Below the pieces are notes generated by a model. That model worked only from the letters and a program-made list of their open reading frames with translations. It made no database searches and was not told the origin of the DNA. The position numbers were made by a program, and so were the translations under genes. Shown piece after piece: positions 8,971 through 51,438 of a DNA stretch of 64,000 nt. This DNA is from an uncultured Actinomycetes bacterium (GTDB taxonomy: Bacteria > Actinomycetota > Actinomycetes > S36-B12 > UBA10799), in assembly GCA_964547485.1 (NCBI GenBank), contig CAZJNU010000006.1, positions 1,863 through 65,862 on the forward strand. The letters run 5' to 3'. Each line of letters starts with the position of its first letter. The first letter of the stretch is position 1.

Positions 8971-8980
8971 GGTGTCTCTG

Positions 8981-13104: not shown

Positions 13105-13231
13105 TTGGCCGTCGCTGCGGGCGAGCCCAAACGTGACACGCCGGTGAACATGCGGCAAATACTCCCGAGGTCCACTATTTTCAAGCAGAACCGCTGAAGC
13201 GTCGGCGGAACCCCCTACGAAGGAGTCGCAC

Positions 13232-14542
<1,311 letters not shown>

Positions 14543-14551
14543 TCCGTTCTG

Positions 14552-14592
14552 GTCGAAGGTCCCGAGCCCCAGGTGGGTTCGGGACCTTCGAC
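14552..14592 (+). terminator. intrinsic-terminator-like hairpin after the binding-protein gene
   Basis: Perfect 14-bp stem GTCGAAGGTCCCGA / TCGGGACCTTCGAC with a 13-nt loop, 10 nt after the stop. The only U tract is a short GTT. Confidence 0.6.
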
Positions 14593-14684
14593 GTTGCCGC
14601 GGGTTACGCGGCGCGAACTCGCCACCGGCGACCGTCTGCGGAAAGTTCCGCCGACGCCGGTCCCGAGGGCAGTAGCGTGGCGCC

Positions 14685-19602: not shown

Positions 19603-19604
19603 GG

Positions 19605-21564: not shown

Positions 21565-21577
21565 GTCCGCGCCCCCT

Positions 21578-25167: not shown

Positions 25168-25172
25168 TGCTG

Positions 25173-32356: not shown

Positions 32357-33195
32357 TTCCGCCGATAGAGCCGGGAGCGCTGGTCGATCGTGTCCAGTTG
32401 TCGGGCATGCGCCGAACCGCGAGAGGACTCCCGAGAGCCGAGCCCAAGCACGCCGCCTGGGACCAGCGACTCGAACAGAATCTCGTGCACCCGGGCGTGC
32501 AGTTCGGCGTTGAAGTAGATCAGCACATTGCGACACAAAATGAGATCGAACGAATTGAAGCTGGCATCGGATGCGAGGTTGTGCCGGGCGAAAACGATGC
32601 GCTCGCTGAGCGTCCGGTCGAACAGGGGTTCCTCGCCGGTCGACCCGCCGCCGGAGATTGGGAAGTAGTCGGCCAGGGCTGCGGTGCCGCCGCTTGCGAG
32701 GTAGTCATGGTTTCCGGCTGAGATACGGTCCGGAGCGACGAAACCGGCGCGCGCCTGGGCGAGGGACTGCTCGTTGATGTCGGTTGCGTAGATCCGGAAC
32801 CGCTGTGGTGACAACCCGCTCTCGACGAGGGTGATGGCCAACGAGTAGGCCTCCTCGCCGGTGGCCGCACCCGCCACCCAGGCGCGGACCAGGGTGCGGG
32901 AGTCGAAGGCCGGCAGCACGTCCGAACGCAGTGTGGCCCACATGCCTGGATCTCGGAACAGGTGGGTGAAACCCAGGCTCAGGGAGTCGATGACATCATC
33001 GACCAGCAGCGGGTTCTCCCCGACCCGCGCGGCCAACTCTGTGACGCCGCCGTTCATCCGGTGGCGGTCGGCGACGCGCCGGAGTCGCCGGATCACGAAC
33101 GGGCGTTGGTAATTGTTGAAGTCGGCGCCGCGGGTGGCCAGCACGGCAGCCAGCACGTGATCGACCGCGCCGTCGAGTTCAGCGGGTTCGAGCAC
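32350..33195 (-). CDS. cheR: CheR-type protein-glutamate O-methyltransferase
   Basis: THLFRDPGMW, RAWVAGAATGEEAYSLAI, IYATDIN, ILCRNVLIYF. Overlaps the kinase gene end by 17 nt. Confidence 0.85.
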   Translation of the reverse strand: MLEPAELDGAVDHVLAAVLATRGADFNNYQRPFVIRRLRRVADRHRMNGGVTELAARVGENPLLVDDVIDSLSLGFTHLFRDPGMWATLRSDVLPAFDSRTLVRAWVAGAATGEEAYSLAITLVESGLSPQRFRIYATDINEQSLAQARAGFVAPDRISAGNHDYLASGGTAALADYFPISGGGSTGEEPLFDRTLSERIVFARHNLASDASFNSFDLILCRNVLIYFNAELHARVHEILFESLVPGGVLGLGSRESSRGSAHARQLDTIDQRSRLYRRKW

Positions 33196-36775: not shown

Positions 36776-37815
36776 GACTGCCGGCCTTCGCCAGACTCTT
36801 CCGCACCGGAGATGACCAGGCCGGAGCCCGCCTTCTTCGCCTCATACATGGCCCGGTCGGCCGCCGCCAGGATCTGGTCGATCGTGACGTTGTGGGACGC
36901 GAGGTGCAGAGCGAGGCCGACGCTGCCCGGTGCCGCAACGAATCGGCCGTCACTGAGTTGGTAGTCGGCGGCGAGCGCCCCGTGGATCCGCTCGCCCATA
37001 CTTGCGAGGTCGTCGTCATCCTGGATCTCCTGCACGACGACGCAGAACTCGTCACCGCCGAGCCGGGCCACCAGGTCGTACGGTCGCGCGATGCCGCGAA
37101 GTCGGCCTGCAGCCAGCACCAGGACCTCATCACCCGCCGCATGGCCCAGCGTGTCGTTGATCGTCTTGAATCCGTCCAGATCGATCACTGCCACCCCGTG
37201 ATGGCGGCCGGAGCGCTGCTGGTGGGCGCGGACTGCCGCCAGCGAATTCATCAGTTGCCGACGATTCATCAGGGAGGTGAGTGGGTCTGTCGCGGCAAGC
37301 AACTGCAAGTTCGCGTTGGCCTCCGACAATTGCTGTTCAATCGCCCGAAGCCGATCCCGTTGCCGTTCGATTTGCTTCAACTGTTGGGCGAGGGTGCAGA
37401 AGACGTTGACCTTTGACTGCAGAATCTGCGGTACGACCGGCTTCGACAGGTAGTCCACCGCCCCCAGGTCGTACCCGGCCGACATCGCGTCGTCATTGAA
37501 CGCGTACCCGGTGACGAACAGGATGGGTGTCGTTGCCAGTCGAGGATTTGCCCGGACCAGGCCGGCGAGCTCGAACCCCGTCATGTCGCCGAGGTTGACA
37601 TCGAGCAGGATCGCCGCAGGTGTGGTCTTGCGCAGCAGCCGCAGCGCTTCCGTTCCGGATGCGGCGAACACCAGTTCCCGGTCCGGTTCGGCGAGCAGAT
37701 CGCCGATGAGCAGATTGGCGTTGGGATCGTCATCGATCACCATCACCACGACGGGATCGATCGGCTCGGTTGGTGCCTCCGACTCAGCCACCTGTGACCC
37801 TTTCGATCGTGCCAC
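36772..37815 (-). CDS. response regulator with GGDEF diguanylate cyclase output
   Basis: Receiver VVMVIDDDP...LLDVNLGDMTG...KP. GGDEF active site RLGGDEF with an RPYD (RxxD I-site) 5 residues upstream. The stop overlaps the kinase start (ATGA). Confidence 0.9.
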   Translation of the reverse strand: MARSKGSQVAESEAPTEPIDPVVVMVIDDDPNANLLIGDLLAEPDRELVFAASGTEALRLLRKTTPAAILLDVNLGDMTGFELAGLVRANPRLATTPILFVTGYAFNDDAMSAGYDLGAVDYLSKPVVPQILQSKVNVFCTLAQQLKQIERQRDRLRAIEQQLSEANANLQLLAATDPLTSLMNRRQLMNSLAAVRAHQQRSGRHHGVAVIDLDGFKTINDTLGHAAGDEVLVLAAGRLRGIARPYDLVARLGGDEFCVVVQEIQDDDDLASMGERIHGALAADYQLSDGRFVAAPGSVGLALHLASHNVTIDQILAAADRAMYEAKKAGSGLVISGAEESGEGRQS

Positions 37816-39100: not shown

Positions 39101-40042
39101 TCATCCTGCGACGGGAGCTGCTTGCTGTTGCGGTGCGCGGGCAGTCGGTCCGCCGCTGGCAATCCGATCGCGCAGCATCGCCCGATCGATGGCGACGCCG
39201 TCAGTGGACTCCAGGAATCCCAACACAGTCCTGGCGAATCGCGCCGGCTCATCCATGTGCGGGAAATGCCGCGACTGCTCGAAGATCTCCAATTGGCTGC
39301 CCGGGATCGCCTGGTGAGCCGCATAGGCGTGGGAGACCGGGATGAGGGTGTCCAACGCACCCCAGACAATCAGAGTGGGGCGACCCTCGCCGAGGTAGAG
39401 CCGGTCGGCTGCGCTGACACGCTGGCCACCTGGTTCGACCACACTGCGCAGCGAGTGCACGAACGCCGTCCGGGCAGGTCCGTCTGCCAGTGACGCGTAG
39501 CCGCGTGCCACCTCGGCCACCGATGGCCGGGGTCGAATCGGGACTCGCCGAAGCAGGCGGCCGACTGCCACCCCAGCGTCGCGGACCCGGCGATTGGCGA
39601 TCACCGGCAGGACGAACTCGGCGCCGGGCAGGGTGGCGGCCCGCAGCGCCGGGGTCACCTCGCGGCCGAGACCGCCACTATCCACCAGCACTACCCGCTC
39701 GCAGTACTCGCTGTACTGATAGGCGAATTGCAGAGCCACGCCGCCGCCGAGGGAGTGCCCGACGATGGTGACCCGATCGTGGCCGAGGTGTTCCAGCAGG
39801 TCGCGCAGGCCGCTAGCGAACCCGCCAAGGGAGTAGTCGGTGCGGGGCTTGTCCGACTCGCCATGGCCCAACAGATCGGGCGCGATCACGTGCGCGTGCT
39901 CTGCCAATGCCGGGATCACCGGGTCCCAGGTGGCGCTGCTGCTGGTGATCCCATGAATCATCAGCAGCACGGGCAGGTTGGGGTCGCCCGCGACTCGGTA
40001 CACCATTCTGTGCCCGTGCAGGGTCACCTCTGTCTGTTGCAT
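39101..40042 (-). CDS. alpha/beta-fold hydrolase
   Basis: LLMIHGITSSSATW, nucleophile elbow GHSLGG, 313 aa. Confidence 0.85.
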   Translation of the reverse strand: MQQTEVTLHGHRMVYRVAGDPNLPVLLMIHGITSSSATWDPVIPALAEHAHVIAPDLLGHGESDKPRTDYSLGGFASGLRDLLEHLGHDRVTIVGHSLGGGVALQFAYQYSEYCERVVLVDSGGLGREVTPALRAATLPGAEFVLPVIANRRVRDAGVAVGRLLRRVPIRPRPSVAEVARGYASLADGPARTAFVHSLRSVVEPGGQRVSAADRLYLGEGRPTLIVWGALDTLIPVSHAYAAHQAIPGSQLEIFEQSRHFPHMDEPARFARTVLGFLESTDGVAIDRAMLRDRIASGGPTARAPQQQAAPVAG

Positions 40043-40181
40043 GGCGACCTCCTATTGCTGGTCATCCCAGCAGACCATGCCAGCGGCGCCTGCCGACACC
40101 CGGGGGTCGCGGTTGCCCCGGACGCAACGGCGCAGCAGGCCGGTTAGCTGCCGAATTAGTCACAGTCTAGAGTCAATCCCT

Positions 40182-42548
40182 GTGGCAAATAGATCACTGT
40201 TCACACGGGGAAGCTCCAGCGACTGGCCACGAGCAGTTCGACTGCTTCCGTTGGCCGCGGCGATCGCCTCCTACGTCTTGATCGTCTTTGGCAGTCATGT
40301 CCGCGTCAGCGAATCGGGGATGGGGTGCCCCGACTGGCCACTGTGCTACGGCCAGCCAGGGCCAATCCTGGAGTTTCACGCCTTGATGGAACAGGGACAT
40401 CGCTATCTAGCAGCCGTGGTCTCACTGTTGGTGCTGGTAACCGCAGTCCTGGCGTTCTGGTATCGACGTTCACGCCCGGCAGCGGTTCGGCCAGCGATGT
40501 TCACGGTGGTCATGCTGGGTGTTCAGGTACTGCTCGGGGCCGTCACAGTGTTCGCCGGCAATGGGTCGCCGACGGTGGCTCTGCACCTCATCGGGGGCCT
40601 TTCGCTGCTGGCCGGGGCCACGGTCACGGCGCTCTGTGTGTTCCTCCCCAAGGTCCAAGTCGCCGGTGCTCGGCTGCGTCGGCTGGCGTGGGCCGGTGTT
40701 GCGGCAGTGGCACTGCTCGTTACCTCAGGGTCGTTGATCGTCGACGCTGCGGTCGAGGGTCTGTGCCCCAGCATTCCGTTCTGTCCGGCGGGCAGCTCTG
40801 GGGCCGAGACAATGCTGCATGTGGGCCACCGCAGCGTGGCGTTGGTGACCGGGGTGGTGGTCTGGGCGCTCGCGATCCACGCCTGGCGACAGTGGTCCGG
40901 GGTGCGCGGGGCCCGCCCACTGGCGGTCCTTTCCGCGGGCATGATCCTCCTCACCGCCGCAATCGGCGTCACCTCTGCCCTACTGATGGCACCCCCGGAA
41001 TGGGCAGACCTTCACCTGGCAGGTGCCGCTGCGGTGCTGGTGAGCGTCGTGAGTCTGACGACACTCGGCTGGCTGTCGGGGGCAGACGCTGTCGGTGATG
41101 GCACCGGAGGGCGGGGTGACCAAATCGTGGCAGCCTCGCCCGACGACCACCGCCCGGCCACCTCCAGGACCAGGGTTCGCGATGGTGTGCTGGTGTCTGC
41201 GCTCACGGTCGTCCTTGTTGCCATCGGCTACCTCATGGGGGCCCAGCAGGGAGCAGCCAATCCCTCCGATCCCGAGGCCGGGTCCGCCAGCGCTGCCGTG
41301 ACTCCAACCGGTCACACGACCATGGCGGAGGTCACGATCGAGGATATGCGTTTCGTCCCCGATCTGATCGAGGTGCCAGCGGGGGACACACTAGAGATTC
41401 GGCTGGCCAACCACGACGATCGCGACCATGACCTCGTACTGGACTCGGGTCAACGAACGGCCCGGCTGGCCACCGGAAGCACCGAGACCCTCAGCGTCGG
41501 AGTTGTGACGGACCCGATTGAAGGGTGGTGTTCGATTGCTGGCCACCGATGGCTGGGAATGGCACTGAAAGTGGCAGTCATCGGAGGTTCGCCACCCAGT
41601 GATGCCGACTCCGAGGCACCCCACGGTTCCGGATCCCACAAGATGCCGATGGCCACGGCTTCGGGGGATGAGGTTGGTGACCTGGATCTGATGGCCTCGC
41701 CTGAGGCGACTTTTGCCGCGCACAATCCGGCACTCGCGCCGTCCACTCGGCAAGCAGTACACAGGGTCCGGCTTCCGGTGACCCAGCGTGAGTACGAGGT
41801 CGCCCCCGGGGTGCGACAGACACGCTGGACGTTCGCCGGGTCGGCACCGGGGCCGACACTTCGCGGAAGGGTGGGCGACAAATTCGAAATCACACTGATC
41901 AACCGAGGCGACATCGGGCATTCGATCGACTTCCACGCCGGCGCGCTTGCCCCGGATCGTCCAATGCGCACCATCGAGCCCGGACAGGAATTGCGCTACA
42001 ACTTCACCGCCACCAAGGCAGGAATCTGGCTCTACCACTGTTCAACCATGCCAATGTCGATGCATATCGCCAATGGCATGTTCGGTGCGGTGATAATCGA
42101 CCCGCCTGACCTTCCGGAGGTCGACAAGGAGTTTCTGCTGGTGCAATCCGAGTTGTACCTTGGACCGCAAGACGGCACCGCAGACCCGTCCGACATCGCT
42201 TCTGAACACCCTGATCTGGTGGTGTTCAACGGGTACGCCAATCAATATGACCATCGGCCGTTGCAGGTGGGCAGAGGCGAGCGGATCCGCATCTGGGTAC
42301 TGGCAGCCGGACCGAACCGGGGCAGTGCTTTTCACATCGTGGGCGGTCAGTTCGACACGGTCTACGCCGAAGGCAGCTACCTGCTGCGCCCAGGCACTTC
42401 CGTCGGCGGTTCGCAGGTGCTCGGATTGGCCACAGCTCAAGGCGGGTTCGTCGAAACCACCTTGCCCGAACCCGGCAGGTACCCGTTTGTGTCGCACACC
42501 ATGGCCGATGCCGAACGAGGAGCCCACGGGGCGGTGGTGGTCCGATGA
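40182..42548 (+). CDS. fusion protein: COX15/CtaA-like polytopic heme-binding membrane domain, cupredoxin domain, and NirK-like two-domain multicopper nitrite reductase
   Basis: N-terminus GSHVRVSESGMGCPDWPLCYGQ plus repeated His in TM helices (GHRYL, ALHLIGG, HVGHRS, DLHLAG). Middle VTIEDMRFVPDLIEVPAGDTLEIRLANHD. C-terminus GHSIDFHAG and LYHCSTMPMSMHIANGMFGAVIIDP (type 1/type 2 Cu ligand pattern of NirK). The GTG at 40182 avoids overlap with the divergent hydrolase gene. Confidence 0.8.
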   Translation: MANRSLFTRGSSSDWPRAVRLLPLAAAIASYVLIVFGSHVRVSESGMGCPDWPLCYGQPGPILEFHALMEQGHRYLAAVVSLLVLVTAVLAFWYRRSRPAAVRPAMFTVVMLGVQVLLGAVTVFAGNGSPTVALHLIGGLSLLAGATVTALCVFLPKVQVAGARLRRLAWAGVAAVALLVTSGSLIVDAAVEGLCPSIPFCPAGSSGAETMLHVGHRSVALVTGVVVWALAIHAWRQWSGVRGARPLAVLSAGMILLTAAIGVTSALLMAPPEWADLHLAGAAAVLVSVVSLTTLGWLSGADAVGDGTGGRGDQIVAASPDDHRPATSRTRVRDGVLVSALTVVLVAIGYLMGAQQGAANPSDPEAGSASAAVTPTGHTTMAEVTIEDMRFVPDLIEVPAGDTLEIRLANHDDRDHDLVLDSGQRTARLATGSTETLSVGVVTDPIEGWCSIAGHRWLGMALKVAVIGGSPPSDADSEAPHGSGSHKMPMATASGDEVGDLDLMASPEATFAAHNPALAPSTRQAVHRVRLPVTQREYEVAPGVRQTRWTFAGSAPGPTLRGRVGDKFEITLINRGDIGHSIDFHAGALAPDRPMRTIEPGQELRYNFTATKAGIWLYHCSTMPMSMHIANGMFGAVIIDPPDLPEVDKEFLLVQSELYLGPQDGTADPSDIASEHPDLVVFNGYANQYDHRPLQVGRGERIRIWVLAAGPNRGSAFHIVGGQFDTVYAEGSYLLRPGTSVGGSQVLGLATAQGGFVETTLPEPGRYPFVSHTMADAERGAHGAVVVR

Positions 42549-44011
42549 GACGGGGCTCCACGACTGTCGAGACCGTGGGGGTGATCGGTGCCGGCGTCGC
42601 GGGCCTCGCCGCGGCTGGGGTGCTGGCTCGGCAGGGATTCAAGGTCGAGGTCTTCGAAGCAAATGACAAAATCGGCGGTTGCTGCTCGACGACCGAAATC
42701 GGGGGCTTCACGTTCAATGACGGCGCCCTGTACCTGGCTTTGCCAGCCCTGCTTGACCGCACTTTCGAGGCGGTTGGGTTGGATCGGCGATCTGCTCTTC
42801 CGCTGCGACGGATCACGGCGCCACAAACCACTGTCCTGCCCACTGGTGATCGCGTCACCTTCGGTGATGGTCGACGTATCACGGTTCAGCGAGCTCGAGG
42901 AACGATCGACGAGCTACTGCTGGAGCGTGAACTTGACCGAATGATGTCGCGCTGGGAACCAGCATTGCGCCTGCTCACTGATGAGATCCTGGCCGAGCCG
43001 CTCTCCCTCCCGCGCGCCCTGGCCAAAGGGTGGCGGCAGTTGCCCAAGTTTCGCGGGACAGTGGCCGCCGAGCTGAATCGTCTTTTCAGCGACGACGCCG
43101 TTCGGGCGGCGATGTCAGGAGTCCTGTTGTACACCGGAATCCCCCCACAGCAGCAACCCGTCATCTCCATCCTTGGTCTTGTCACGTTGTTCAGCGACGG
43201 CTTTCATCTGCCGGAGGGTGGCATGGGACAAGTGCCCAAGGCCTTAGGTGACGCCGTCCGCATCGGCGGGGGGAAGATTCACCTCAACAGCCGAATCGAC
43301 CGGATTGCCGTCAGCGGAGATCGTGTCCGAGGCCTGCGCCTTCGAGGTCAGGAACTGGTCGAACTGGATGCAGTCGTCTCCACCGCCAGTGGAATGTTGA
43401 CGTTCGGCTCGTTGCTGAGCCCGACGGATTCGCCCCGAAGGTTGGCGCGCAAGGCCGAACGGGCGCAACTTTCGCATAGCGCGTTTTCGGTCCAACTTGG
43501 TCTGCGGAACAAGATCAACACACCCAGTCACTCGAATTGCCAGTTGCCGTTGATGGAGCGGCAAGGCGACGTTTTCAGCCCGTGCGACGACGGCGTGAAG
43601 TGGCTTGTCTACGACACGCCGACGGTGACCCTGCCGGAATTGTCGCTCACGGGCGGCAGCATCATCGAGATGTACCCGCCGGTGCAGCGGGGTCTCCCCA
43701 TCGATGACTGGACCGATTCGCGCGACGCCCACATTGTCGACAAAGCCTTGGAAGCACTGTCACGAGTCCACGATCTGGATGTCGCCGTGACCCGGGTAAC
43801 CAGTCCGAAGGGCTTTCAGGACAGACTCAATCTGTATCGCGGGGCGGTGTACGGATTGTCCCCGCAGGTCGCACCGTGGAACCATTTTCCCCACCGCACT
43901 GCTATCCGGGGCTTGTATCAGAGCGGCCAGACAACGTACCCGGGATATAGCGTCGGACGATCAGCCATCTCTGGCGTCCTGGCCGCCGAAGCACTTATAC
44001 AGGACCAGTGA
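42545..44011 (+). CDS. FAD/NAD(P)-binding oxidoreductase (phytoene-desaturase/CrtI-like family)
   Basis: VGVIGAGVAGLAAAGVLARQGFKVEVFEANDKIGG dinucleotide-binding motif. The start overlaps the stop of the NirK fusion gene (ATGA). Confidence 0.8.
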   Translation: MRRGSTTVETVGVIGAGVAGLAAAGVLARQGFKVEVFEANDKIGGCCSTTEIGGFTFNDGALYLALPALLDRTFEAVGLDRRSALPLRRITAPQTTVLPTGDRVTFGDGRRITVQRARGTIDELLLERELDRMMSRWEPALRLLTDEILAEPLSLPRALAKGWRQLPKFRGTVAAELNRLFSDDAVRAAMSGVLLYTGIPPQQQPVISILGLVTLFSDGFHLPEGGMGQVPKALGDAVRIGGGKIHLNSRIDRIAVSGDRVRGLRLRGQELVELDAVVSTASGMLTFGSLLSPTDSPRRLARKAERAQLSHSAFSVQLGLRNKINTPSHSNCQLPLMERQGDVFSPCDDGVKWLVYDTPTVTLPELSLTGGSIIEMYPPVQRGLPIDDWTDSRDAHIVDKALEALSRVHDLDVAVTRVTSPKGFQDRLNLYRGAVYGLSPQVAPWNHFPHRTAIRGLYQSGQTTYPGYSVGRSAISGVLAAEALIQDQ

Positions 44012-44057: not shown

Positions 44058-44696
44058 CTACCGCCGCGGCGCCCAAAGCGGGTAAGGCAAACCTGCGAGG
44101 CGGTTGATCGCCAGCCCTTCCAGGATCATCAGCACCACCGCGATCATCAGGATCAGCAACTGCTCCGGGGTCCGCATCAGGCCGAGGGCCACGATCAGGG
44201 TCGTCGCGCCTGCCGGCGCGTGCGGCACCCCCAGCCAGACCATGAACGACAGGGTCAGGCACAGTGCGACGGTGGCAGCCCCCACCCGAGGCCAGGTGAC
44301 ATCCTCGAGGTCCGGTGCCACCGTCGTCAGTCCAAAGATGAGTAGAGCCAGAAAGCCCGCGACCACCCCGATCAGATGCCCGCAGAAGACGTTGCGAGGG
44401 GCCGCCTGATCACCGAGCGCGGCGAAGAAGAGCAGGAATGCGGTGGGCCCGAGTGACGGGAACACGAAAGGCTGGTCGGTTACCGCCGCGATGCTGGAGA
44501 GCACGGCGATGGAGATTGCGGAGTTGATCAGAACATAGGCGCCGAGTACGATCCGGTTGTTGTGCCGCGTTTGCAGCCCCTTGAGGCCGAACCGGGTGGC
44601 CAGTCCGTGTACCTGTGCTGGCAGGTCGCCGTAGGGTCCTCGAGGTTCGCCGCCAGCTACTCCGGACGCCTCGATCCGAGCCTGCTCATTCGTCAT
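44058..44696 (-). CDS. HPP-family integral membrane protein
   Basis: Polytopic, with FPSLGPTAFLLF and VPHAPAGATTLIVALG (HPP-like motif). Lies 25 nt downstream of narI on the same strand. Confidence 0.68.
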   Translation of the reverse strand: MTNEQARIEASGVAGGEPRGPYGDLPAQVHGLATRFGLKGLQTRHNNRIVLGAYVLINSAISIAVLSSIAAVTDQPFVFPSLGPTAFLLFFAALGDQAAPRNVFCGHLIGVVAGFLALLIFGLTTVAPDLEDVTWPRVGAATVALCLTLSFMVWLGVPHAPAGATTLIVALGLMRTPEQLLILMIAVVLMILEGLAINRLAGLPYPLWAPRR

Positions 44697-44721: not shown

Positions 44722-45474
44722 TCAGTCTCGACCGATCGTCTGCCAACGCCGGGACGTTCCCGGATTGGGGATGTGAGCAGCTGCCCTGCTCCGGTAGACG
44801 ATGTACGGCCGGGTCAGATAGAACACGGGGGCACTGAAGGCGTGCACCAACCGCCCCCAGGGGAAGAGCGCGAAGAAGAGCCAGGCGATGGTCACGTGGA
44901 CCTGATAGATCGTCGGCGCACCGACCATCAGCGAAGGGTCCGGCTGAAGGTAGAACAGGCTGCGGAACCATTCACCGACCGTCGGACGGTAGTTGTAGCC
45001 GGGACCGAAGATGTTGTAGCCCACGGTCTCGGCCATTCCCAGCAGGATCATGATCCACAGGATTATGAAGGTCATCAGGTCGGTCCAGGTGGTGGCGCTG
45101 CGCACTCGGGGATTGTGGAGTCGGCGCGCGGTGAGTATCGCCAGCCCGGCCACGCACAGCACCACCGCGAATCCGCCCGCATACTTCGACACGGAGGCGT
45201 ATAGGGATTCGTTGATACCGAAGAACTCAGTCCAGGATTCGGGTATCAAGATGCCGAGCACATGCCCGGCGATTGCCAGCAGCGCGCCGTAGTGGAACAT
45301 CATCGCGCCGATGATGAGCCACTTCTTTTCATACAGTTCCGAGGACCGGCTGCCCCATCCGTACTTGTCGAACCGATATCGCCACACCAGCCCGACGACG
45401 AAAACGGAAATCCCGATGTAGGGCAGGATTCCGAAGAGCAACCAGTCCCAGGTGCTTGCGGTGGAATCGGTCAT
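44722..45474 (-). CDS. narI: respiratory nitrate reductase gamma subunit
   Basis: WDWLLFGILPYIGISVFVVGLVWRYRFDKYGW...MMFHYGALLAIAGHVLG, 250 aa. Confidence 0.93.
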   Translation of the reverse strand: MTDSTASTWDWLLFGILPYIGISVFVVGLVWRYRFDKYGWGSRSSELYEKKWLIIGAMMFHYGALLAIAGHVLGILIPESWTEFFGINESLYASVSKYAGGFAVVLCVAGLAILTARRLHNPRVRSATTWTDLMTFIILWIMILLGMAETVGYNIFGPGYNYRPTVGEWFRSLFYLQPDPSLMVGAPTIYQVHVTIAWLFFALFPWGRLVHAFSAPVFYLTRPYIVYRSRAAAHIPNPGTSRRWQTIGRD

Positions 45475-46130
45475 CTGCGGGCCCCGCTCACGCTGGCGTT
45501 CTCAATCTGGTACACGTCCAACCCAACCGACTCCTCGGGCGGGCCCTCAGCGGCCAGCGACACCACTGCGGCAAGATCGGCGTCGTCGAGTCGGGGTAGC
45601 ACGGCGAGTACGGCAGCGATCAACGGCGCGAAAGGGTCGTCGAAATCGGCCAGGGAGCGACGCAACAGTTCCAATGACCGCCGATGTGATCCCAGCAACC
45701 GGATCCCGCGGGGTTCGTCGGCCGCGAACTCCAACAGCAGCGGAAGGTAGTCCGGGAGTTCCCCGCTGCTGATGTCGTAACCGTGTCGTAGGAGTACATG
45801 TTTGATCTGCAGGAGCGCGGCCCCCCGATTGCGGGTATCGCCATGAGTGAGGTACGTCAGATGCAGGGGAGTTCTGCGTCGGAAGTCGAACGCGGCGACG
45901 TAACGTTGTTCGCGCTCGTCGGCGGGTAGTGCGACCCACCAAACCGTAAATGATGTAAGGGCATCGGCGGCGCCCCCGGCAGGCAATTGCCGTGACCGAA
46001 CAATCAGATCGGGGTAGAGCGCGACCGTGTCCGGCGTCGGGTAATCCAGCAAGACCGAAACGATCGACAACAGCGTGGATGTTCCCGCCGGGTCGAGTGA
46101 TCGCCGGGAGGACCTGCGCAGGATGCTCAT
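45471..46130 (-). CDS. narJ: nitrate reductase molybdenum cofactor assembly chaperone
   Basis: Position between narH and narI. The ATG at 46130 overlaps the narH stop. LLDYPTPD...YVAAFDFRRRTPLHLTY pattern. Confidence 0.85.
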   Translation of the reverse strand: MSILRRSSRRSLDPAGTSTLLSIVSVLLDYPTPDTVALYPDLIVRSRQLPAGGAADALTSFTVWWVALPADEREQRYVAAFDFRRRTPLHLTYLTHGDTRNRGAALLQIKHVLLRHGYDISSGELPDYLPLLLEFAADEPRGIRLLGSHRRSLELLRRSLADFDDPFAPLIAAVLAVLPRLDDADLAAVVSLAAEGPPEESVGLDVYQIENASVSGARR

Positions 46131-47767
46131 AACGCACCTGCCTGACCGAACGGGTTGCCCGTGGTCAGCTCGCCGTTCCACCCGAGCAGGTTGAACCGTT
46201 TGTTGCCGTCCCCGTCGACAAAGATGCTGCCACTGCCGTCTGTCGCCGGGATTCCTCCGGAACCCAACCCGCGAAACTCTGCGCCCTGACCCTGCCCGAC
46301 GAGTGCTTCGGCGACTCCGGGGCCGCCAGGGAAGTCCAGGCTGCAGTGCTGCGTCTGCAGTGCACCGGCGTCCTCGCGGTGAGCGGTCGGGATGACGTAT
46401 CGGTCTCGGTACTCGCCCACCGCCAGCAGTCGGAACAACTTCTCAACGTCATCGTCATCGAATCCGACGGCAGCGAGGAGGTCGTCGGGCACATCCTCAC
46501 CGAACTGCATGGCCCGCTTGACTGCCCGCAGCACCGTAAGTCTCCGCAGAGCGTCGCGCACCGGAGCCGCATTTCCGGCCGAGAAGATCGAAGCGAGGTA
46601 GTCGATGGGAATTCGCAGATTCTCGATCCCCGCCAGCACCTTCTGGGTGTCGTCGGCATCGAAACCGGCATCGGCGGCATTATCGGCCATTGGAGCAAGC
46701 GGAGGGACGTACCAGACCATCGGCATCGTGCGGAACTCGGGATGCAGCGGAAGCGCCACCCGCAAATCCTTGGCCAAAGCGTAAACCGGTGAGTTCTGAG
46801 CCGCCTGCAACCAGTCGAACGGCACGCCACTGCGCTCTGCGGCACGGAGGACCTCTGGGTCGCGCGGATCCAACATTACGCGTCGATGGGCCTCGACGAG
46901 GTCGTGCGCCTCAGGGGTCTGGGCCGCGGCCGTCACCGCGTCCACGTCATACAGGACCACGCCGATGTAACGGATACGGCCGACGCAGGTCTCCGAACAA
47001 ATGGTTGGCTGACCATCCTCGATCCGGGGGTAGCAGAACGTGCACTTCTCGGCCTTGCCGCTGACGTGGTTGAAGTAGACCTTCTTGTAGGGGCAGCCCG
47101 ACACGCACATCCGCCAGCCGCGACAGGCATTCTGATCGACCAGCACGATCCCGTCCTCGACGCGTTTGTACATGGCGCCCGAGGGGCAGGAGGCGACACA
47201 TGCCGGGTTAAGGCAGTGGTTGCAGATCCGGGGGAGGTAGAACATGAACACTTGCTCATACTCAAGCTGCGCCTGCTGTCCCAGGGAGGCTGCGTTCGGG
47301 TCCTGCTGGAAGCGCTCGTTGGTGCCGGCGAGGTTGTCATCCCAGTTGGGTCCCCAGGTGAGCTTCAACGGCTCTCCGGTCAACCGGGATCGGGATTGGA
47401 CGACGGGGGAGTGTTCCTGCAGCGGAGCACTGACCAGGTTGGCGTATTCGTAGGTCCACGGCTCATAGTAGTCGTCGATTTGAGGCAGGTCGGGATTGCC
47501 GAAGATGCTGAGCAGTTTGCGGATTCGGCCGCCGGCCTTGAGTTTGAGTCGGCCCTTGCCGTCCAGGGCCCAGCCGCCCTTCCAGTGTTCGTTGTCCTCC
47601 CACCGCTTGGGATAGCCGACCCCAGGTTTGGTCTCAACGTTGTTGAACCACACGTAGTCGGTACCCGAACGGTTGGTCCATGCTTGTTTGCAGGTGACGC
47701 TGCAGGTGTGGCACCCGATGCATTTGTCCAGCGCCATCACCATCATCAGTTGCGCCCGCACCCGCAT
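46127..47767 (-). CDS. narH: respiratory nitrate reductase beta subunit
   Basis: MALDKCIGCHTCSVTCK and further Fe-S Cys clusters, 546 aa. Confidence 0.97.
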   Translation of the reverse strand: MRVRAQLMMVMALDKCIGCHTCSVTCKQAWTNRSGTDYVWFNNVETKPGVGYPKRWEDNEHWKGGWALDGKGRLKLKAGGRIRKLLSIFGNPDLPQIDDYYEPWTYEYANLVSAPLQEHSPVVQSRSRLTGEPLKLTWGPNWDDNLAGTNERFQQDPNAASLGQQAQLEYEQVFMFYLPRICNHCLNPACVASCPSGAMYKRVEDGIVLVDQNACRGWRMCVSGCPYKKVYFNHVSGKAEKCTFCYPRIEDGQPTICSETCVGRIRYIGVVLYDVDAVTAAAQTPEAHDLVEAHRRVMLDPRDPEVLRAAERSGVPFDWLQAAQNSPVYALAKDLRVALPLHPEFRTMPMVWYVPPLAPMADNAADAGFDADDTQKVLAGIENLRIPIDYLASIFSAGNAAPVRDALRRLTVLRAVKRAMQFGEDVPDDLLAAVGFDDDDVEKLFRLLAVGEYRDRYVIPTAHREDAGALQTQHCSLDFPGGPGVAEALVGQGQGAEFRGLGSGGIPATDGSGSIFVDGDGNKRFNLLGWNGELTTGNPFGQAGAL

Positions 47768-50700
47768 CAGTACTGCACCTCCTGCGACCGCCGCCGCAGC
47801 ACCGCAACCTCATCGCGTTGAGATCCTGTGCAGCCGTAGTAGTTGAAGCCGTAGGACAACTGGCCATAACCACCGATCATGTGAGTGGGTTTGAGCAATG
47901 CCCGGGTCAGACTGTTCTCGGTACCGCCCCGTCGACCAGTGCGTTCGGTCAGCGGCGTTTGCACCTGTCTGTCCTTGGCGTGATAGACGTACACCAAACC
48001 CTTCGGCATCCGCGGAGACACTGCGGCCACACCGTCGATCACGCCGTTGCGATTCCACACCTCGGCCCACTCCCCGTCTCGTAGCCCGATCTCGGCCGCA
48101 TCCTCGACACTGACCCAGACTGTCGGCCCGCCCCGGAACAGGGTGAGCATCAATAGATCGTCCTGGTATTCGGAGTGGATACTCCACTTACTGTGCGGAG
48201 TTAAGTACCGCACCGCAATACTGCCCTCGTCGAGGTCGTGCACCTGTGAGTACTTCGCCATCATGTTCAGCGGTGGTCGGTAGATCGGCAGCATCTCCCC
48301 GTACTCCTTCATCCACTCGTGGTCCAAGAAGAACGAGATCCTGCCCGTCAACGTGCGCCAGGGCAGCGCCTTGGCCACGTTGACGGCGTAACCCGTGTAT
48401 GCCTTTTGCGCTGATACGTCACCGGTCCAATCGGGCGAGTTGATGACCTGTTGCGGGCGTTGGCTGACATCGTCCCAAGTGATCCGAATGTCGCTTTGCC
48501 CTGCCACCAGGTCGGTCAGGTCCAACCCGGAAACCGACTCGGCATCGCGCCAGAGGTCCAGCGCGACCGCACCGTTGGTGGCACCGGAGAGCGCCAGCAT
48601 TGCCTCCGCGCAGTGTTGATCCGTCGTCAACTGCGGTCGTCCCGCCGCTGGCCCGGTAGCCACGGTGCCGTTCTTCTCTGCCAGCCAGGCGACCTGTTCG
48701 GTCGGGACGCTGTGGTAATCCTTGGCCGTCACACCGGCGGTCTCGACCCTGGGTCCGAGGGCTTGCCACTTGGCATGCACCGCTGCGTAGTCGCGTTCAA
48801 CGACTACCAGCTTCGGCGCATTCACACCAGGGATCGGCCGACTACCGCTGACGCGCCAGTCATCCACCCGTCCGTGCGGAACGGACAGTTCGCCGGCGGA
48901 GTCATGCGCGATGGACACGGCGACGATGTCTTGGCGAACCCCCAGGTGCTTGGCCGCCAGCTCACTGAATGACTCCGCGATCGCGCTGAAAGCGTCCCAA
49001 TCGCTGCGTGATTCCCAGGGCGGGTCGATCGCCTTGTTGAACGAGTGCACGAACGGATGCAGATCGGTACACGATAGGTCGAACTTCTCGTACCAGGTCG
49101 CCGCCGGGAATACGACGTCGGCGAAGTTGGCGGTACTGGTCATCCGGAAGTCAAAGTTGACCAGCAGGTCGAGTTTTCCGATGGGCGCCTGATCTCGCCA
49201 GATGACCTCCTGCGGCCGACGATCCGGCTCGGTCTCGCTGGCGTCCGCGTTCGCGGCGCCTCCCAACAGGTGACGGATGAAGAACTCATGACCCTTACCC
49301 GAGCCGCCAAGGATATTGCTGCGCCACACCATCAACAGCCGCGGAAAGTTCACCGGGTCATCTGGATCCTCGACGCTGAACCGCAACGAACCGTCCGCCA
49401 GCCGATCGACGACATGTTCGGCTGGTTCCTTGCCTAGCGCCCTGGCTTCGTCCGCTAGATCGAGGGGGTTCGCCGCAAAGGTGGGGTAGGTCACCTGCCA
49501 ACCAAGTCGAACAGCCACGTTGAGGCAGTCCATGAAGGATCGCCCTTCGAACCTGCCATCACCCAGGGGAGAGGCGAGGTCGTCGGCTTGCCACACCTCG
49601 TAGCGCCACTGGTCGGTTGCCGTGTAGTAGTACGCCGTGCCGTTGCACTGTCGCGGCGGCGCGCTCCAGTCCAAGGCGTGCGAGAGGGTCACCCAGCCGC
49701 CGAAGGGTCGGATGGCCTCTTGCCCCACATAGTGGTTCATGCCGCCGCCATTGCGTCCGACGGTTCCGCAGGTAATCAGCAACGTCAGGATCGATCGGTA
49801 CACGGTGTCGGAGTTGAACCAATGGTTGATGCCGGCGCCCATGATGGCCATAGCCCGACCCTCGGTCTTCTCCGCCGCGGTGGCGAATTCCCGCGCGATC
49901 CTGATGCACAGCGCTGCATCGATCCCGGTGATGTCCTCCTGCCAAGCTGGCGTATACGGTTCGGTTGCGTCCTCGTAGCCCGTGGGCCAAGTACCTGGCA
50001 TATCCGGGCGTTCGACACCGTAGTGAGCGAGCATGAGATCGAACACAGTGGTCACCGGAACGCCGTCGACGTCGATCACGGGGACGCCGCGCCGCACTAC
50101 CCCGGCCGGTTCCTGGTCGAAGCGCGGGAAGAGTACCTCCGCCGTTCCGGTGCCGTGCTTCGCCATGCTCATCGCGGGCACAAGATCGTCGAGCCGAAGG
50201 TTCCAGGTGCCCCGATCCGAGTCGGCGTACTTGGCTGCCATAACACCGGGCGGACTGACGATCGTCGCAGTCGCTTCGTCGAAGATGACCGGTCGGAAGG
50301 CGGCCAGTTCAGGTTGCTCGCCCAAATCGGACACCGTCATCATCCGATCTGGCACGTACCCGCCCCTGGGGCTCTCTGCCAGCCGCACGAGAAACGGCAG
50401 ATCTGTGAAGGTGCGGCAGTACTCAGTGAAATAGGGCGACTGCCGGTCGACGTGGAACTCCTTCAGGACCACGTGCCCCATGGCCATGGCCAGAGCGCCG
50501 TCACTTCCCGGTGCCACCGGCAGCCAATGGTCGGCGAACTTCGCATGCTCGGCGTAATCCGGGGCAACCACCACCACCTTCTCTCCGTGGTAGCGGGATT
50601 CGGCAAGGAAGTGCGCATCAGGTGTTCGCGTCACGGGCACGTTGGAGCCCCAGACGAGCACGTACGACGAATTCCACCAGTCCCGAGCTTCGGCAACATC

Positions 50701-51438
50701 GGTTTGTTCGCCGAAGGTCTGCGGGCTGGCCGGAGGAAGGTCCGCGTACCAGTCGTAGAACGAAACGTGCGCACCACCTGTGAGGGCCATGTAGCGCGAA
50801 CCGGACGCGTAGGACACAGGTGACATGGCCGGCAGGGGGGTGAACGCTGCGGCCCGATCGGGGCCATGGACTTTGATCGTGTGGACATGGGCGGCGGCGG
50901 TGATCTGCACCGCCTCGTGATACGTCGCCCGCATCAGCCCACCCCGGCCGCGCTCGCCCTTGTAGCGGGCTACCAACTCGGTATCCGCCTGGATGGCTGA
51001 CCATCGTTCGACCGGATCGGGGTGACTGTCCGCCATCGAGCGCCAGGACCGCAGCAGCGCGCCGCGAACGTAGGGGAAGCGCACTCGCGCTGGGCTATAG
51101 ACGTACCAAGAAAAGGAAGCCCCCCGAGGGCAGCCGCGCGGCTCATGGTCGGGGACCCCAGGTGGGGTCTGCGGATAGTCGGTCTGCTGCGTCTCCCAGG
51201 AAATGATTCCATCGCGGACGTACACCTTCCATGAACAGGAACCAGTGCAGTTCACGCCGTGCGTGGACCGGACCTCCTTGTCATGGCGCCATCGGTCGCG
51301 ATAGAACTCTTCCCACGAGCTGGGGTCCTCCCGGTCGACGCTTCGTGCGTCGGAACTGACCGTTCCCTTGGTCAGGTGGCGCAGTCCCGGCGGCATCAGC
51401 GGGTCGGCGCCGTGCGCCTGCGAGCGGGGTCCGGACAT
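47767..51438 (-). CDS. narG: respiratory nitrate reductase alpha subunit
   Basis: HGVNCTGSCSWKVYVRDGIISWETQQTDYP N-terminal Fe-S motif, 1223 aa. Confidence 0.97.
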   Translation of the reverse strand: MSGPRSQAHGADPLMPPGLRHLTKGTVSSDARSVDREDPSSWEEFYRDRWRHDKEVRSTHGVNCTGSCSWKVYVRDGIISWETQQTDYPQTPPGVPDHEPRGCPRGASFSWYVYSPARVRFPYVRGALLRSWRSMADSHPDPVERWSAIQADTELVARYKGERGRGGLMRATYHEAVQITAAAHVHTIKVHGPDRAAAFTPLPAMSPVSYASGSRYMALTGGAHVSFYDWYADLPPASPQTFGEQTDVAEARDWWNSSYVLVWGSNVPVTRTPDAHFLAESRYHGEKVVVVAPDYAEHAKFADHWLPVAPGSDGALAMAMGHVVLKEFHVDRQSPYFTEYCRTFTDLPFLVRLAESPRGGYVPDRMMTVSDLGEQPELAAFRPVIFDEATATIVSPPGVMAAKYADSDRGTWNLRLDDLVPAMSMAKHGTGTAEVLFPRFDQEPAGVVRRGVPVIDVDGVPVTTVFDLMLAHYGVERPDMPGTWPTGYEDATEPYTPAWQEDITGIDAALCIRIAREFATAAEKTEGRAMAIMGAGINHWFNSDTVYRSILTLLITCGTVGRNGGGMNHYVGQEAIRPFGGWVTLSHALDWSAPPRQCNGTAYYYTATDQWRYEVWQADDLASPLGDGRFEGRSFMDCLNVAVRLGWQVTYPTFAANPLDLADEARALGKEPAEHVVDRLADGSLRFSVEDPDDPVNFPRLLMVWRSNILGGSGKGHEFFIRHLLGGAANADASETEPDRRPQEVIWRDQAPIGKLDLLVNFDFRMTSTANFADVVFPAATWYEKFDLSCTDLHPFVHSFNKAIDPPWESRSDWDAFSAIAESFSELAAKHLGVRQDIVAVSIAHDSAGELSVPHGRVDDWRVSGSRPIPGVNAPKLVVVERDYAAVHAKWQALGPRVETAGVTAKDYHSVPTEQVAWLAEKNGTVATGPAAGRPQLTTDQHCAEAMLALSGATNGAVALDLWRDAESVSGLDLTDLVAGQSDIRITWDDVSQRPQQVINSPDWTGDVSAQKAYTGYAVNVAKALPWRTLTGRISFFLDHEWMKEYGEMLPIYRPPLNMMAKYSQVHDLDEGSIAVRYLTPHSKWSIHSEYQDDLLMLTLFRGGPTVWVSVEDAAEIGLRDGEWAEVWNRNGVIDGVAAVSPRMPKGLVYVYHAKDRQVQTPLTERTGRRGGTENSLTRALLKPTHMIGGYGQLSYGFNYYGCTGSQRDEVAVLRRRSQEVQY

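What the first reader, a model, noticed from the sequence alone, without database searches (positions are those of the whole stretch)
40182..42548. Single polypeptide joining a CtaA/COX15-like heme membrane domain, a cupredoxin and a NirK-type nitrite reductase
The N-terminal third has the CPDWPLCYG cysteine motif and the repeated TM histidines characteristic of heme A synthase/COX15 proteins. A plastocyanin-like cupredoxin domain follows, then a two-domain multicopper module with the NirK ligand pattern (HSIDFHAG; HCSTMPMSMHIANGM). In classical NirK systems a soluble cupredoxin or cytochrome delivers the electrons. Here a possible membrane heme domain, an electron-carrier domain and the catalytic domains are fused. 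This suggests a self-contained membrane-to-copper electron wire suited to an organism without a periplasm. Whether the CtaA-like part still makes heme A or merely binds heme b is unknown.
Basis: partly seen in the sequence, partly recalled or inferred. Interest (0 to 1): 0.62.

Follow-up and report, generated by a model that had tools for sequence, protein, structure and literature searches.

The report
Heme A synthase fused to NirK
In a small group of uncultured freshwater and wastewater actinobacteria, one gene joins a complete membrane enzyme that normally makes heme A to a copper carrier domain and a copper nitrite reductase; this architecture was not found in the literature I searched, and it may show which redox partner heme A synthase uses.

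Summary
Window 40182-42548 (+) is one uninterrupted 788-aa ORF. It has eight helices of COX15/CtaA (Pfam 2e-31; B. subtilis CtaA 6a2j 7e-21), a ninth anchor helix, a cupredoxin with a full type-1 Cu ligand set, and a NirK core with every T1Cu, T2Cu and catalytic residue. The same fusion occurs in at least six diverged protein clusters (59-100% identity) from independent assemblies, so it is not an assembly artefact.

The architecture is very rare. It is found in 2 of 185,579 species genomes, and only one of 1.84 billion representative proteins spans the junction.

The copper half is the known actinobacterial membrane-tethered cupredoxin-NirK. The CtaA module has replaced that family's usual, unrelated ~400-aa membrane domain.

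The CtaA module keeps all heme A synthase signature residues and evolves no faster than stand-alone CtaA. No second ctaA was found in the two fusion-bearing genomes. I therefore read the protein as bifunctional (heme A synthase plus nitrite reductase), probably with electron exchange between the outward-facing hemes and the tethered copper.

The finding is a new variant of a known kind, of moderate to high interest.

The parts
40182..42548 (+). Whole fusion gene (788 aa plus stop): CtaA, anchor helix, cupredoxin, NirK
   Evidence: Single ORF. GTG start supported by homologue N-termini. Domain hits. AF2 model has pLDDT 80.9.
40230..41081 (+). Heme A synthase (COX15/CtaA) module, residues ~17-300, eight TM helices. 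Key residues: C49/C55, H66, E70, H73, H135, C195/C201, H213, H216, H278
   Evidence: PF02628 2e-31. 6a2j 7e-21. Key residues invariant in alignment A2. Helices. 75 of 95 CtaA-conserved columns kept.
41082..41171 (+). Cytoplasmic linker 1 (residues 301-330), Arg-rich just before the anchor helix
   Evidence: pLDDT below 50. The linker plus TM9 is only 23-64% identical among fusions, against 60-94% for the CtaA module.
41172..41255 (+). Ninth TM helix (residues ~331-358), which carries the copper domains to the outer face
   Evidence: Hydropathy peak at 336-354. Helix 331-358 in the AF2 model. The same anchor is present in long and short actinobacterial NirKs.
41298..41582 (+). Cupredoxin domain (residues ~373-467) with T1Cu ligands H416, C450, H455, M460
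   Evidence: Cupredoxin_1 1.4e-11. Aligned to the N-terminal cupredoxin of HdNiR 2dv6. Positions.
41742..42545 (+). NirK catalytic core (residues ~521-788). T1Cu H580/C620/H628/M633; T2Cu H585/H619/H772; catalytic D583 and H718
   Evidence: 2dv6 4.5e-49 and more than 170 NirK chains. Foldseek TM-score (normalised to the target) 0.78-0.85 to two-domain NirKs. The same residues are invariant in 82 actinobacterial NirKs.
42545..44011 (+). CrtI/phytoene-desaturase-family FAD oxidoreductase. Its start overlaps the fusion's stop codon (ATGA). Role unknown.
   Evidence: Pfam Amino_oxidase 4e-27; TIGR02734 168.9 bits, below the 238.1 cut-off. Conserved after the fusion in L001, L002, L003 and L008, but not in L006 or the M. 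gilvum nirK locus.
44058..44696 (-). HPP-family membrane protein, a probable nitrite channel, last gene of the nar operon
   Evidence: PF04982 6.9e-21. HPP proteins transport nitrite in cyanobacteria and plastids. Conserved in L001, L002, L003 and L008.
44722..51438 (-). narGHJI respiratory nitrate reductase: narI 44722-45474, narJ ~45471-46130, narH 46127-47767, narG 47767-51438
   Evidence: Pfam families of the identical genes in L001 and L002. ORFs.

Best explanation
This is a real, single, bifunctional membrane protein.

The C-terminal half (anchor helix, cupredoxin, NirK) lies on the outer face of the membrane of a monoderm actinobacterium. It is a working NO-forming copper nitrite reductase that consumes the nitrite made by the adjacent NarGHJI. 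An HPP-family protein is the likely nitrite channel.

The N-terminal eight helices are a complete type-1 heme A synthase with two cysteine pairs. They have displaced the unrelated ~400-residue membrane domain that normally heads actinobacterial NirKs. Because this module keeps every heme A synthase signature and evolves at the normal CtaA rate, I infer that it still binds heme b and heme O and still makes heme A. It is probably the lineage's own, possibly only, heme A synthase.

Its four axial histidines sit at the outer ends of helices 2, 4, 6 and 8. That is the same side of the membrane as the tethered cupredoxin. The most likely reason the fusion is retained is therefore direct electron exchange between the synthase's hemes and the type-1 copper. 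The direction is unresolved.

Shown: the architecture, the ligand sets, the conservation, the rarity and the gene context. Inferred: both enzyme activities, the redox coupling, and sole-copy status.
For: Architecture and ligands.

All three domains are under purifying selection while the linkers are not. Among the six fusions the CtaA module is 60-94% identical, the cupredoxin 56-89%, NirK 73-93%, and the linkers 23-67%.

The CtaA signature is intact. C49/C55, E70, H73, H135, C195/C201, H216 and H278 are invariant in the fusions and the stand-alone CtaAs aligned. Of 95 columns at least 97% conserved in 117 stand-alone CtaAs, 75 are identical in all fusions and only 4 show fixed, conservative changes.

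The fusion CtaA domains are monophyletic. Their root-to-tip lengths are 0.48-0.54, against 0.51 +/- 0.03 for stand-alone proteins, so there is no acceleration.

A motif scan of 185,579 species genomes returned only the fusion copy in both fusion-bearing MAGs. There is no second ctaA in the window.

One TM helix is enough as an anchor, as the short form P0087 shows, so an eight-helix module is not needed for anchoring.

Heme A synthase is a trimer (PMC7327177), like NirK, so the symmetries are compatible.

There is precedent for CtaA in denitrification clusters. Many eNOR operons carry a CtaA homologue and eNOR uses heme As (PMC11214002). Geobacillus NOR clusters lie next to heme O oxygenase (PMC3475470).

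The nar-HPP context is conserved in L001, L002, L003 and L008.
Against: No activity of either half has been measured.

Sole-copy status rests on two fragmentary MAGs and on two clade-specific peptide motifs. A divergent ctaA would have been missed.

No ctaB, aa3 oxidase or heme-a NOR genes lie in the 64-kb window, so a need for heme A in this organism is not demonstrated.

The NirK half of the fusions is nested among long-form NirKs. CtaA therefore occupies exactly the slot of the usual membrane domain, which favours a role that serves NirK.

The NirK half scores below NCBIfam's equivalog cut-off (164.8 against 296.3 bits).

The AF2 inter-domain geometry is uncertain (pTM 0.56), and no heme-to-copper distance could be measured.
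Confidence: 0.5

Rival explanations
1. The CtaA-derived module no longer makes heme A. It has been recruited as a membrane b-type cytochrome that takes electrons from the menaquinol pool, directly or through a partner, and passes them through heme b to the cupredoxin, to NirK T1Cu and then T2Cu. That would make a self-contained quinol:nitrite oxidoreductase.
For: CtaA replaces the usual N-terminal membrane domain at exactly the same position, in a NirK lineage nested among long forms. That usual domain has four invariant histidines, which suggests a cofactor-binding module.

The heme ligands lie at the outer helix ends, on the cupredoxin side.

Tethered heme-cupredoxin-NirK wires exist with c-type heme, for example the four-domain enzyme of Bradyrhizobium ORS 375.

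Monoderm actinobacteria are generally held to lack soluble periplasmic electron carriers (general knowledge; not checked for this organism).

The reported midpoint potentials of B. subtilis CtaA hemes (about +85 and +242 mV; from memory, not checked here) would lie between menaquinol and T1Cu.
Against: No quinol-binding site is known in CtaA.

Both heme sites lie at the same outer depth, so the module is not a transmembrane wire.

Residues needed for catalysis rather than for heme b binding are all retained: the E57 equivalent E70, the substrate-side H73 and H135, and the ECL1 cysteine pair. There is no rate acceleration.

No second ctaA was found in the fusion genomes to take over heme A synthesis.
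Confidence: 0.2
2. The protein has two independent functions on one chain with no electron exchange. Both halves work, as heme A synthase and as NirK. The fusion merely enforces co-expression and co-localisation, for example to make heme A for a heme-a-containing NO reductase or oxidase whenever NirK is made. It could also be a neutral fusion of once-adjacent genes, tolerated because both partners are trimers.
For: The heme A synthase signature and a normal evolutionary rate. CtaA homologues sit in NOR operons. The linkers are poorly conserved and disordered. CtaA is already known to tolerate fusion, for example to CtaB (PMC8239418).
Against: No stand-alone ctaA locus among about 39 examined has nirK within 6 kb, so no pre-fusion adjacency is seen. 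No NOR or oxidase genes lie in the window. The fusion has been retained across lineages down to 59% identity, which argues for some benefit.
Confidence: 0.18
3. The eight-helix module is only a membrane anchor or trimerisation scaffold and has lost its cofactors.
For: Heme A synthase forms trimers and NirK needs a trimer to build T2Cu sites. The membrane domain in this position is variable in the family: long, short and CtaA forms exist.
Against: A ninth helix already anchors the protein, and short forms manage with one helix. All heme ligands, the Glu and both Cys pairs are invariant over 40% divergence, and 75 of 95 CtaA-conserved columns are kept.
Confidence: 0.04
4. This is an artefact: a chimeric assembly, or two genes misread as one.
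For: All carriers are metagenome-derived. One Logan contig (P0122) carries a frameshifted copy.
Against: The same uninterrupted ORF appears in independent assemblies from NCBI, ENA, JGI and Logan at 59-100% identity, with the domain order conserved and the linker sequences diverging.
Confidence: 0.02

Closest known systems
Actinobacterial long NirK (about 850-940 aa, e.g. Cutibacterium acnes, Mycolicibacterium gilvum; described in Decleyre et al. 2016, PMC4770552)
   Same: An N-terminal polytopic membrane domain, one anchor helix, a cupredoxin with a CX4HX4M motif, and a NirK core. The copper half is 54-64% identical to the window protein, and the fusion's copper half is nested within this clade.
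   Different: Its ~400-aa membrane domain (12-13 helices; invariant H28, H40, H114, H171) is not homologous to CtaA (hhalign probability 0.2%) and has no known family. In the window it is replaced by heme A synthase.
Hyphomicrobium denitrificans HdNiR (PDB 2dv6, 6tfd): NirK with an N-terminal cupredoxin
   Same: It is the best solved-structure match for residues ~388-783 (4.5e-49). Both the cupredoxin and the NirK core align, and all Cu ligands are conserved.
   Different: HdNiR is a soluble periplasmic enzyme with no membrane domain and no heme.
Heme-tethered NirKs: Ralstonia pickettii RpNiR (3ziy) and the four-domain heme-cupredoxin-NirK of Bradyrhizobium sp. ORS 375 (6the; PMC7775769)
   Same: The concept is the same: a heme domain, with or without a cupredoxin, and NirK on one chain form a built-in electron path. 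The NirK core matches at TM-score 0.83 to the target.
   Different: Their heme is a soluble c-type cytochrome with a CxxCH motif. The window protein has no CxxCH. Its heme module is an integral-membrane, bis-His b/o/a-type biosynthetic enzyme.
Bacillus subtilis CtaA (6a2j), a type 1.1 / class B heme A synthase
   Same: Eight helices in two four-helix bundles, a cysteine pair in each of ECL1 and ECL3, an E-x-x-H-R motif in helix 2, and four axial His.
   Different: The first cysteine pair is spaced by 5 residues rather than 6. The protein carries about 490 extra C-terminal residues. It is not next to ctaB or cox genes in the window.
Other CtaA/Cox15 fusions: CtaA-CtaB fusions (PMC8239418) and the S. 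pombe Cox15-ferredoxin fusion (from memory, not checked here)
   Same: Heme A synthase tolerates fusion. In the S. pombe case the partner is thought to be its electron donor, which is a precedent for reading the cupredoxin as a redox partner.
   Different: Those partners belong to the heme A pathway. A nitrite reductase does not. No paper among those searched mentions a CtaA-NirK fusion.
CtaA homologues encoded in NO-reductase (eNOR, Geobacillus NOR) operons
   Same: They link heme A synthesis to denitrification genes.
   Different: There CtaA is a separate gene next to a heme-copper NOR. Here it is covalently joined to NirK, and no NOR lies within the window.

Membership tests
Copper-containing nitrite reductase NirK (EC 1.7.2.1) | Two cupredoxin-fold domains of the multicopper-oxidase type | tested here: met
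   Cu-oxidase_3 4.3e-16 and Cu-oxidase_2 7e-07. More than 170 NirK chains matched. Foldseek TM-score 0.78-0.85 to the target.
Copper-containing nitrite reductase NirK (EC 1.7.2.1) | T1Cu ligands His-Cys-His-Met and T2Cu ligands His, His plus a His from the neighbouring subunit | tested here: met
   H580, C620, H628, M633 and H585, H619, H772. These align to the HdNiR ligand columns and are invariant in 82 relatives.
Copper-containing nitrite reductase NirK (EC 1.7.2.1) | Catalytic Asp and His in the T2Cu pocket | tested here: met
   D583 in HSIDFH and H718 in AFHIVGG.
Copper-containing nitrite reductase NirK (EC 1.7.2.1) | Score above the curated equivalog threshold (TIGR02376) | tested here: not met
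   164.8 bits against a cut-off of 296.3. The protein belongs to the divergent clade II / actinobacterial group (PMC4770552); I did not score other members of that group against this model.
Copper-containing nitrite reductase NirK (EC 1.7.2.1) | Homotrimer and nitrite-to-NO activity | not testable with these tools
   Needs biochemistry or a multimer model.
Actinobacterial long (membrane-domain) NirK | Anchor helix, cupredoxin (CX4HX4M) and NirK, homologous throughout | tested here: met
   54-64% identity over the C-terminal ~52% of the protein. Nested in that clade.
Actinobacterial long (membrane-domain) NirK | The family's ~400-aa N-terminal polytopic domain | tested here: not met
   Relatives cover only the C-terminal half. 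hhalign of that domain against the CtaA alignment gives probability 0.2%.
Heme A synthase CtaA/COX15, type 1.1 (class B) | PF02628 above the gathering threshold and an eight-helix, two-bundle topology | tested here: met
   109.6 bits against 29.9. 6a2j 7e-21. Eight helices.
Heme A synthase CtaA/COX15, type 1.1 (class B) | Four axial His (B. subtilis H60, H123, H216, H278) and Glu57 | tested here: met
   H73, H135, H216, H278 and E70 are invariant in the fusions and stand-alone proteins aligned.
Heme A synthase CtaA/COX15, type 1.1 (class B) | Cysteine pairs in ECL1 and ECL3 | tested here: met
   C49/C55 and C195/C201 are invariant. Classification criteria from PMC7327177 and PMC8239418.
Heme A synthase CtaA/COX15, type 1.1 (class B) | Genomic partnership with ctaB and a heme-a oxidase; conversion of heme O to heme A | tested here: inconclusive
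   No ctaB or cox genes in the 64-kb window. The UbiA gene at 25173-26054 is decaprenyl-phosphate phosphoribosyltransferase, not CtaB.
Heme-c-tethered NirK (RpNiR, four-domain BrNiR) | c-type cytochrome domain with CxxCH | tested here: not met
   No CxxCH anywhere in the 788 aa.

The most novel reading that the evidence does not exclude
The fusion reveals the long-sought redox partner of bacterial heme A synthase. The tethered cupredoxin-NirK accepts the electrons removed from the heme O methyl group, so that nitrite rather than O2 can drive heme A formation and an oxygen-independent route to heme A exists in a nitrate respirer. Alternatively, the cupredoxin supplies the reducing equivalents that the synthase needs.
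Probability: 0.1. Interest if true: 0.85.

Novelty: new variant of a known kind. Interest (0 to 1): 0.55.

Why it matters
There are two reasons.

First, the mechanism of heme A synthase is unresolved. Its activity depends on O2, yet the formyl oxygen comes from water. The role of its heme b is unclear, and no in-vitro assay exists (PMC7327177). Its electron partner is also not established, as far as I know (general knowledge, not taken from that paper). A natural fusion that places a type-1 copper centre on the same membrane face as its hemes is a Rosetta-stone hint that can be tested directly. The protein carries its candidate partner with it.

Second, how membrane-tethered NirKs of monoderm actinobacteria receive electrons is unknown, and the function of their usual N-terminal domain is also unknown. 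A lineage that swapped that domain for a recognisable heme protein provides a tractable handle on both questions.

The practical reach is limited. The architecture is confined to a narrow, uncultured clade.

Tried and rejected
(1) Second ctaA in the window: tblastn found none.

(2) The UbiA-family gene at 25173-26054 as ctaB: rejected. It is decaprenyl-phosphate phosphoribosyltransferase sitting with DprE1 and DprE2.

(3) Homology between the usual actinobacterial N-domain and CtaA: rejected (hhalign probability 0.2%).

(5) The 408-aa gene after the fusion in L006 as a detached copy of the usual N-domain: rejected. It is a soluble protein.

(6) The crtI-like neighbour as a general NirK or heme partner: not supported. 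It is absent from the M. gilvum nirK locus. Its roughly 70%-identical relatives in other phyla have unrelated neighbours.

(7) Synteny argument for loss of a stand-alone ctaA. In 8 MAG loci ctaA follows the DprE cluster, and in the window it does not. Those MAGs are only distant relatives (about 40% identity), so this is weak.

(8) Promoter, terminator or regulator sites around the gene: nothing above chance.

(9) Literature searches for a CtaA/COX15-NirK fusion found no description.

(10) An apparent truncation of the P450 gene beyond narG was an artefact of my own ORF filter. The gene is intact.
Full report
**1. Observation**

The stretch 39978-42548 (+) is open throughout. It agrees with the N-termini of homologues and lies beyond the divergently transcribed hydrolase gene that ends at 40042.

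Pfam finds COX15-CtaA (2e-31, 109.6 bits against a cut-off of 29.9), Cupredoxin_1 (1.4e-11), Cu-oxidase_3 (4.3e-16) and Cu-oxidase_2 (7e-07).

Against solved structures, the N-terminal third matches B. subtilis heme A synthase 6a2j (7e-21) and Aquifex heme O oxygenase 8aw5. The C-terminal half matches the cupredoxin-NirK of Hyphomicrobium denitrificans 2dv6 (4.5e-49) and more than 170 other NirK chains.

An AlphaFold2 model (pLDDT 80.9) shows eight helices, a ninth helix at 331-358, a beta-sandwich cupredoxin and the two-domain NirK core. Confidence is low only in the linkers and the two cysteine loops. Foldseek returns NirKs with target-normalised TM-scores of 0.78-0.85.

**2. Residues**

CtaA part:
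- First cysteine pair C49/C55 (CPDWPLC).
- H66, E70 and H73 (E-x-x-H-R, as in B. subtilis E57/H60).
- H135.
- Second cysteine pair C195/C201.
- H213, H216 and H278.

Cupredoxin: H416, C450, H455, M460.

NirK:
- T1Cu: H580, C620, H628, M633.
- T2Cu: H585, H619, H772.
- Catalytic: D583 and H718.

There is no CxxCH motif.

Hydropathy and the model give nine helices. Arg-rich cytoplasmic segments lie at the N-terminus and before helix 9, so the copper domains are outside the cell membrane. The four axial histidines lie at the outer ends of helices 2, 4, 6 and 8, on the same side as the cupredoxin. This follows from the sequence and topology; it is an inference.

**3. Reality and rarity of the fusion**

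Six clusters at 90% identity (P0001-P0006, 59-100% identical, full coverage) carry the same architecture. They come from NCBI, ENA, JGI and Logan assemblies of aquatic and wastewater metagenomes. The window is about 99% identical in DNA to MAG GCA_964269095.1. One cluster member is named "hypothetical protein [Actinomycetota bacterium]".

Among 185,579 species-representative genomes, only two MAGs carry the fusion (L007 at 99%, L008 at 70%). A query spanning the CtaA-cupredoxin junction against 1.84 billion representative proteins found one protein matching across the junction (P0004, 8e-87). The next hits (2e-28 and weaker) are far weaker; most match only the CtaA or only the cupredoxin part, and a few long NirKs align further across hydrophobic stretches at about 32-37% identity.

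Among the fusions the three domains are conserved: CtaA 60-94%, cupredoxin 56-89%, NirK 73-93%. The linkers are not (23-67%). This is one gene under selection in each domain, not an artefact.

**4. What the copper half is**

More than 100 actinobacterial proteins of about 850-940 aa (Mycolicibacterium, Pseudonocardia, Nocardioides, Streptomyces and others) match only the C-terminal ~52% at 54-64% identity. This is the published actinobacterial long NirK: a 400-aa transmembrane domain of unknown function, a cupredoxin and NirK. Short forms lack the membrane domain (PMC4770552; P0087).

In a neighbour-joining tree, the copper half of the fusions is nested among long forms.

The usual membrane domain is unrelated to CtaA (hhalign probability 0.2%). 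It has no Pfam or PDB relative. It folds confidently into 12-13 helices and has four invariant histidines.

So the novelty here is a domain replacement within a known architecture, not the invention of a membrane-cupredoxin-NirK fusion.

**5. What the CtaA half is**

On its own it is 49-60% identical to hundreds of stand-alone 300-330-aa COX15/CtaA proteins of uncultured freshwater Actinomycetes. The two apparent 64-74% hits are truncated or frameshifted fusion fragments.

All signature residues are invariant in the fusions and the stand-alone proteins aligned. Of 95 columns at least 97% conserved in 117 stand-alone proteins, 75 are identical in all six fusions. Four show fixed conservative changes (A134L, A176V, L227V, Q275A). 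Sixteen vary mildly.

The fusion domains form one clade, sister to the 117 stand-alone proteins. Their root-to-tip lengths (0.48-0.54) are indistinguishable from those of the stand-alone proteins (0.51 +/- 0.03).

The motif scan that recovered about 39 stand-alone actinomycete ctaA genes found no second copy in either fusion-bearing MAG. The window has none. This is moderate evidence only. The MAGs are incomplete and the motifs are clade-specific.

By published criteria the domain is a type 1.1 / class B heme A synthase, with eight helices and two cysteine pairs (PMC7327177 and PMC8239418).

**6. Context**

The fusion gene's stop codon overlaps the start of a CrtI-family FAD oxidoreductase (42545-44011). 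Converging on this pair are an HPP-family gene and narIJHG.

This block is conserved in L001, L002, L003 and L008, but not in the most divergent carrier L006. HPP proteins are nitrite transporters in cyanobacteria and plastids.

The CrtI-like protein is absent from an ordinary nirK locus. It belongs to a family about 70% identical across several phyla, with unrelated neighbours. Its role is unexplained.

No ctaB, heme-copper oxidase or NO reductase genes lie in the 64-kb window.

**7. Mechanism**

I commit to the following. The copper half is a functional extracytoplasmic nitrite reductase fed by NarGHJI. The CtaA half is still a heme-binding, probably catalytically competent heme A synthase.

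Three lines of evidence support the second point:
- The catalytic signature is retained, not just the heme b ligands.
- The evolutionary rate is unaccelerated.
- No other ctaA is apparent.

A pure anchor role is unlikely because helix 9 already anchors the protein and short forms use one helix.

The most likely reason for the fusion is redox communication between the outward-facing hemes and the tethered T1 copper. Heme A synthase and NirK are both trimers, so a threefold assembly is feasible.

The literature also links CtaA to denitrification. Many eNOR operons carry CtaA and eNOR uses heme As. Geobacillus NOR clusters lie next to heme O oxygenase.

The positional replacement of the usual domain and known heme-c-tethered NirKs support it. 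It lacks a known quinol site, and it does not explain why the substrate-side catalytic residues are retained.

My estimates:
- About 0.5 that heme A synthase function is retained and the protein is bifunctional. This figure does not assume redox coupling; coupling is my preferred reading within it.
- About 0.2 that the module is a repurposed wire.
- About 0.18 for two independent functions with no electron exchange between the halves; this rival overlaps the first estimate and differs from my preferred reading only in denying coupling.
- About 0.04 for anchor only.
- About 0.02 for artefact.

**8. Novelty and verdict**

I found no paper describing a CtaA/COX15-NirK fusion. Public annotation calls the protein "hypothetical" or "heme A synthase/multicopper oxidase".

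It is a new variant of a known kind, a tethered multi-domain NirK, and it is confined to a narrow uncultured clade.

Its main value is as a natural experiment on the unknown redox partner of heme A synthase and on electron supply to actinobacterial NirK.

Interest: 0.55.

Noticed in passing
L089:8001-10574 (M. gilvum nirK, P0019) and more than 80 relatives: The usual N-terminal ~400 aa of actinobacterial long NirKs folds confidently into 12-13 helices (pLDDT about 90). It has invariant H28, H40, H114, H171, W36, W54, Q314, R348 and N353, but no Pfam or PDB relative. It is a widespread membrane domain of unknown function, possibly cofactor-binding.
   Followed up: partly
window 42545-44011 (+): A CrtI-family FAD oxidoreductase is translationally coupled to the fusion (ATGA overlap) and conserved only in fusion loci. 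Its family is about 70% identical in Chloroflexi, Planctomycetes and Nitrospirae MAGs with unrelated neighbours. That suggests horizontal spread of a tightly constrained enzyme of unknown function.
   Followed up: partly
window 44058-44696 (-): An HPP-family (PF04982) membrane protein is the last gene of the narGHJI operon. No other nitrate/nitrite transporter gene was recognised next to the operon. HPP proteins are known nitrite transporters in cyanobacteria and plastids, so this may be the nitrite exporter that feeds the external NirK.
   Followed up: partly
L017, L024, L026, L028, L029, L032, L037, L042; window 23039-26054 (-): In eight freshwater actinomycete MAG loci, the stand-alone ctaA lies just downstream of the UbiA (DPPR synthase)-DprE1-DprE2 arabinan cluster. 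The window has that cluster, but an ABC permease follows it instead of ctaA.
   Followed up: partly
window 32350-37815 (-): Upstream of the locus lie a 1198-aa hybrid histidine kinase (HAMP-GAF-HisKA-HATPase with several receiver domains), a receiver-GGDEF protein and CheR/CheB. These are conserved in L001 and L002 and may be a sensory system linked to the nitrate/nitrite genes.
   Followed up: no
window 6528-8366 (+), 8834-10498 (+), 10694-11671 (-): Three large ORFs with coding-like GC3 have no Pfam or NCBIfam match.
   Followed up: no
window 12427-15722 (+) and 18751-22891 (-): An ANTAR response regulator, an AmiC-like binding protein, a MIP channel and a branched-chain-type ABC transporter look like an amide/urea-type uptake and antitermination module.
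   Followed up: no
L003:6292-7745; protein P0122: In one assembly the crtI-like gene is split into 82-aa and 356-aa ORFs. One Logan contig carries a frameshifted copy of the fusion. These are probably assembly errors but could be pseudogenisation.
   Followed up: no
L003:585-3795 and L089:5359-6123: DUF2249 proteins lie near nirK both in a fusion locus and in the M. gilvum locus. In M. gilvum the DUF2249 is fused to a hemerythrin domain; in L003 a radical SAM gene and a cupin gene lie alongside. This may be a shared NO/O2-related accessory set.
   Followed up: no
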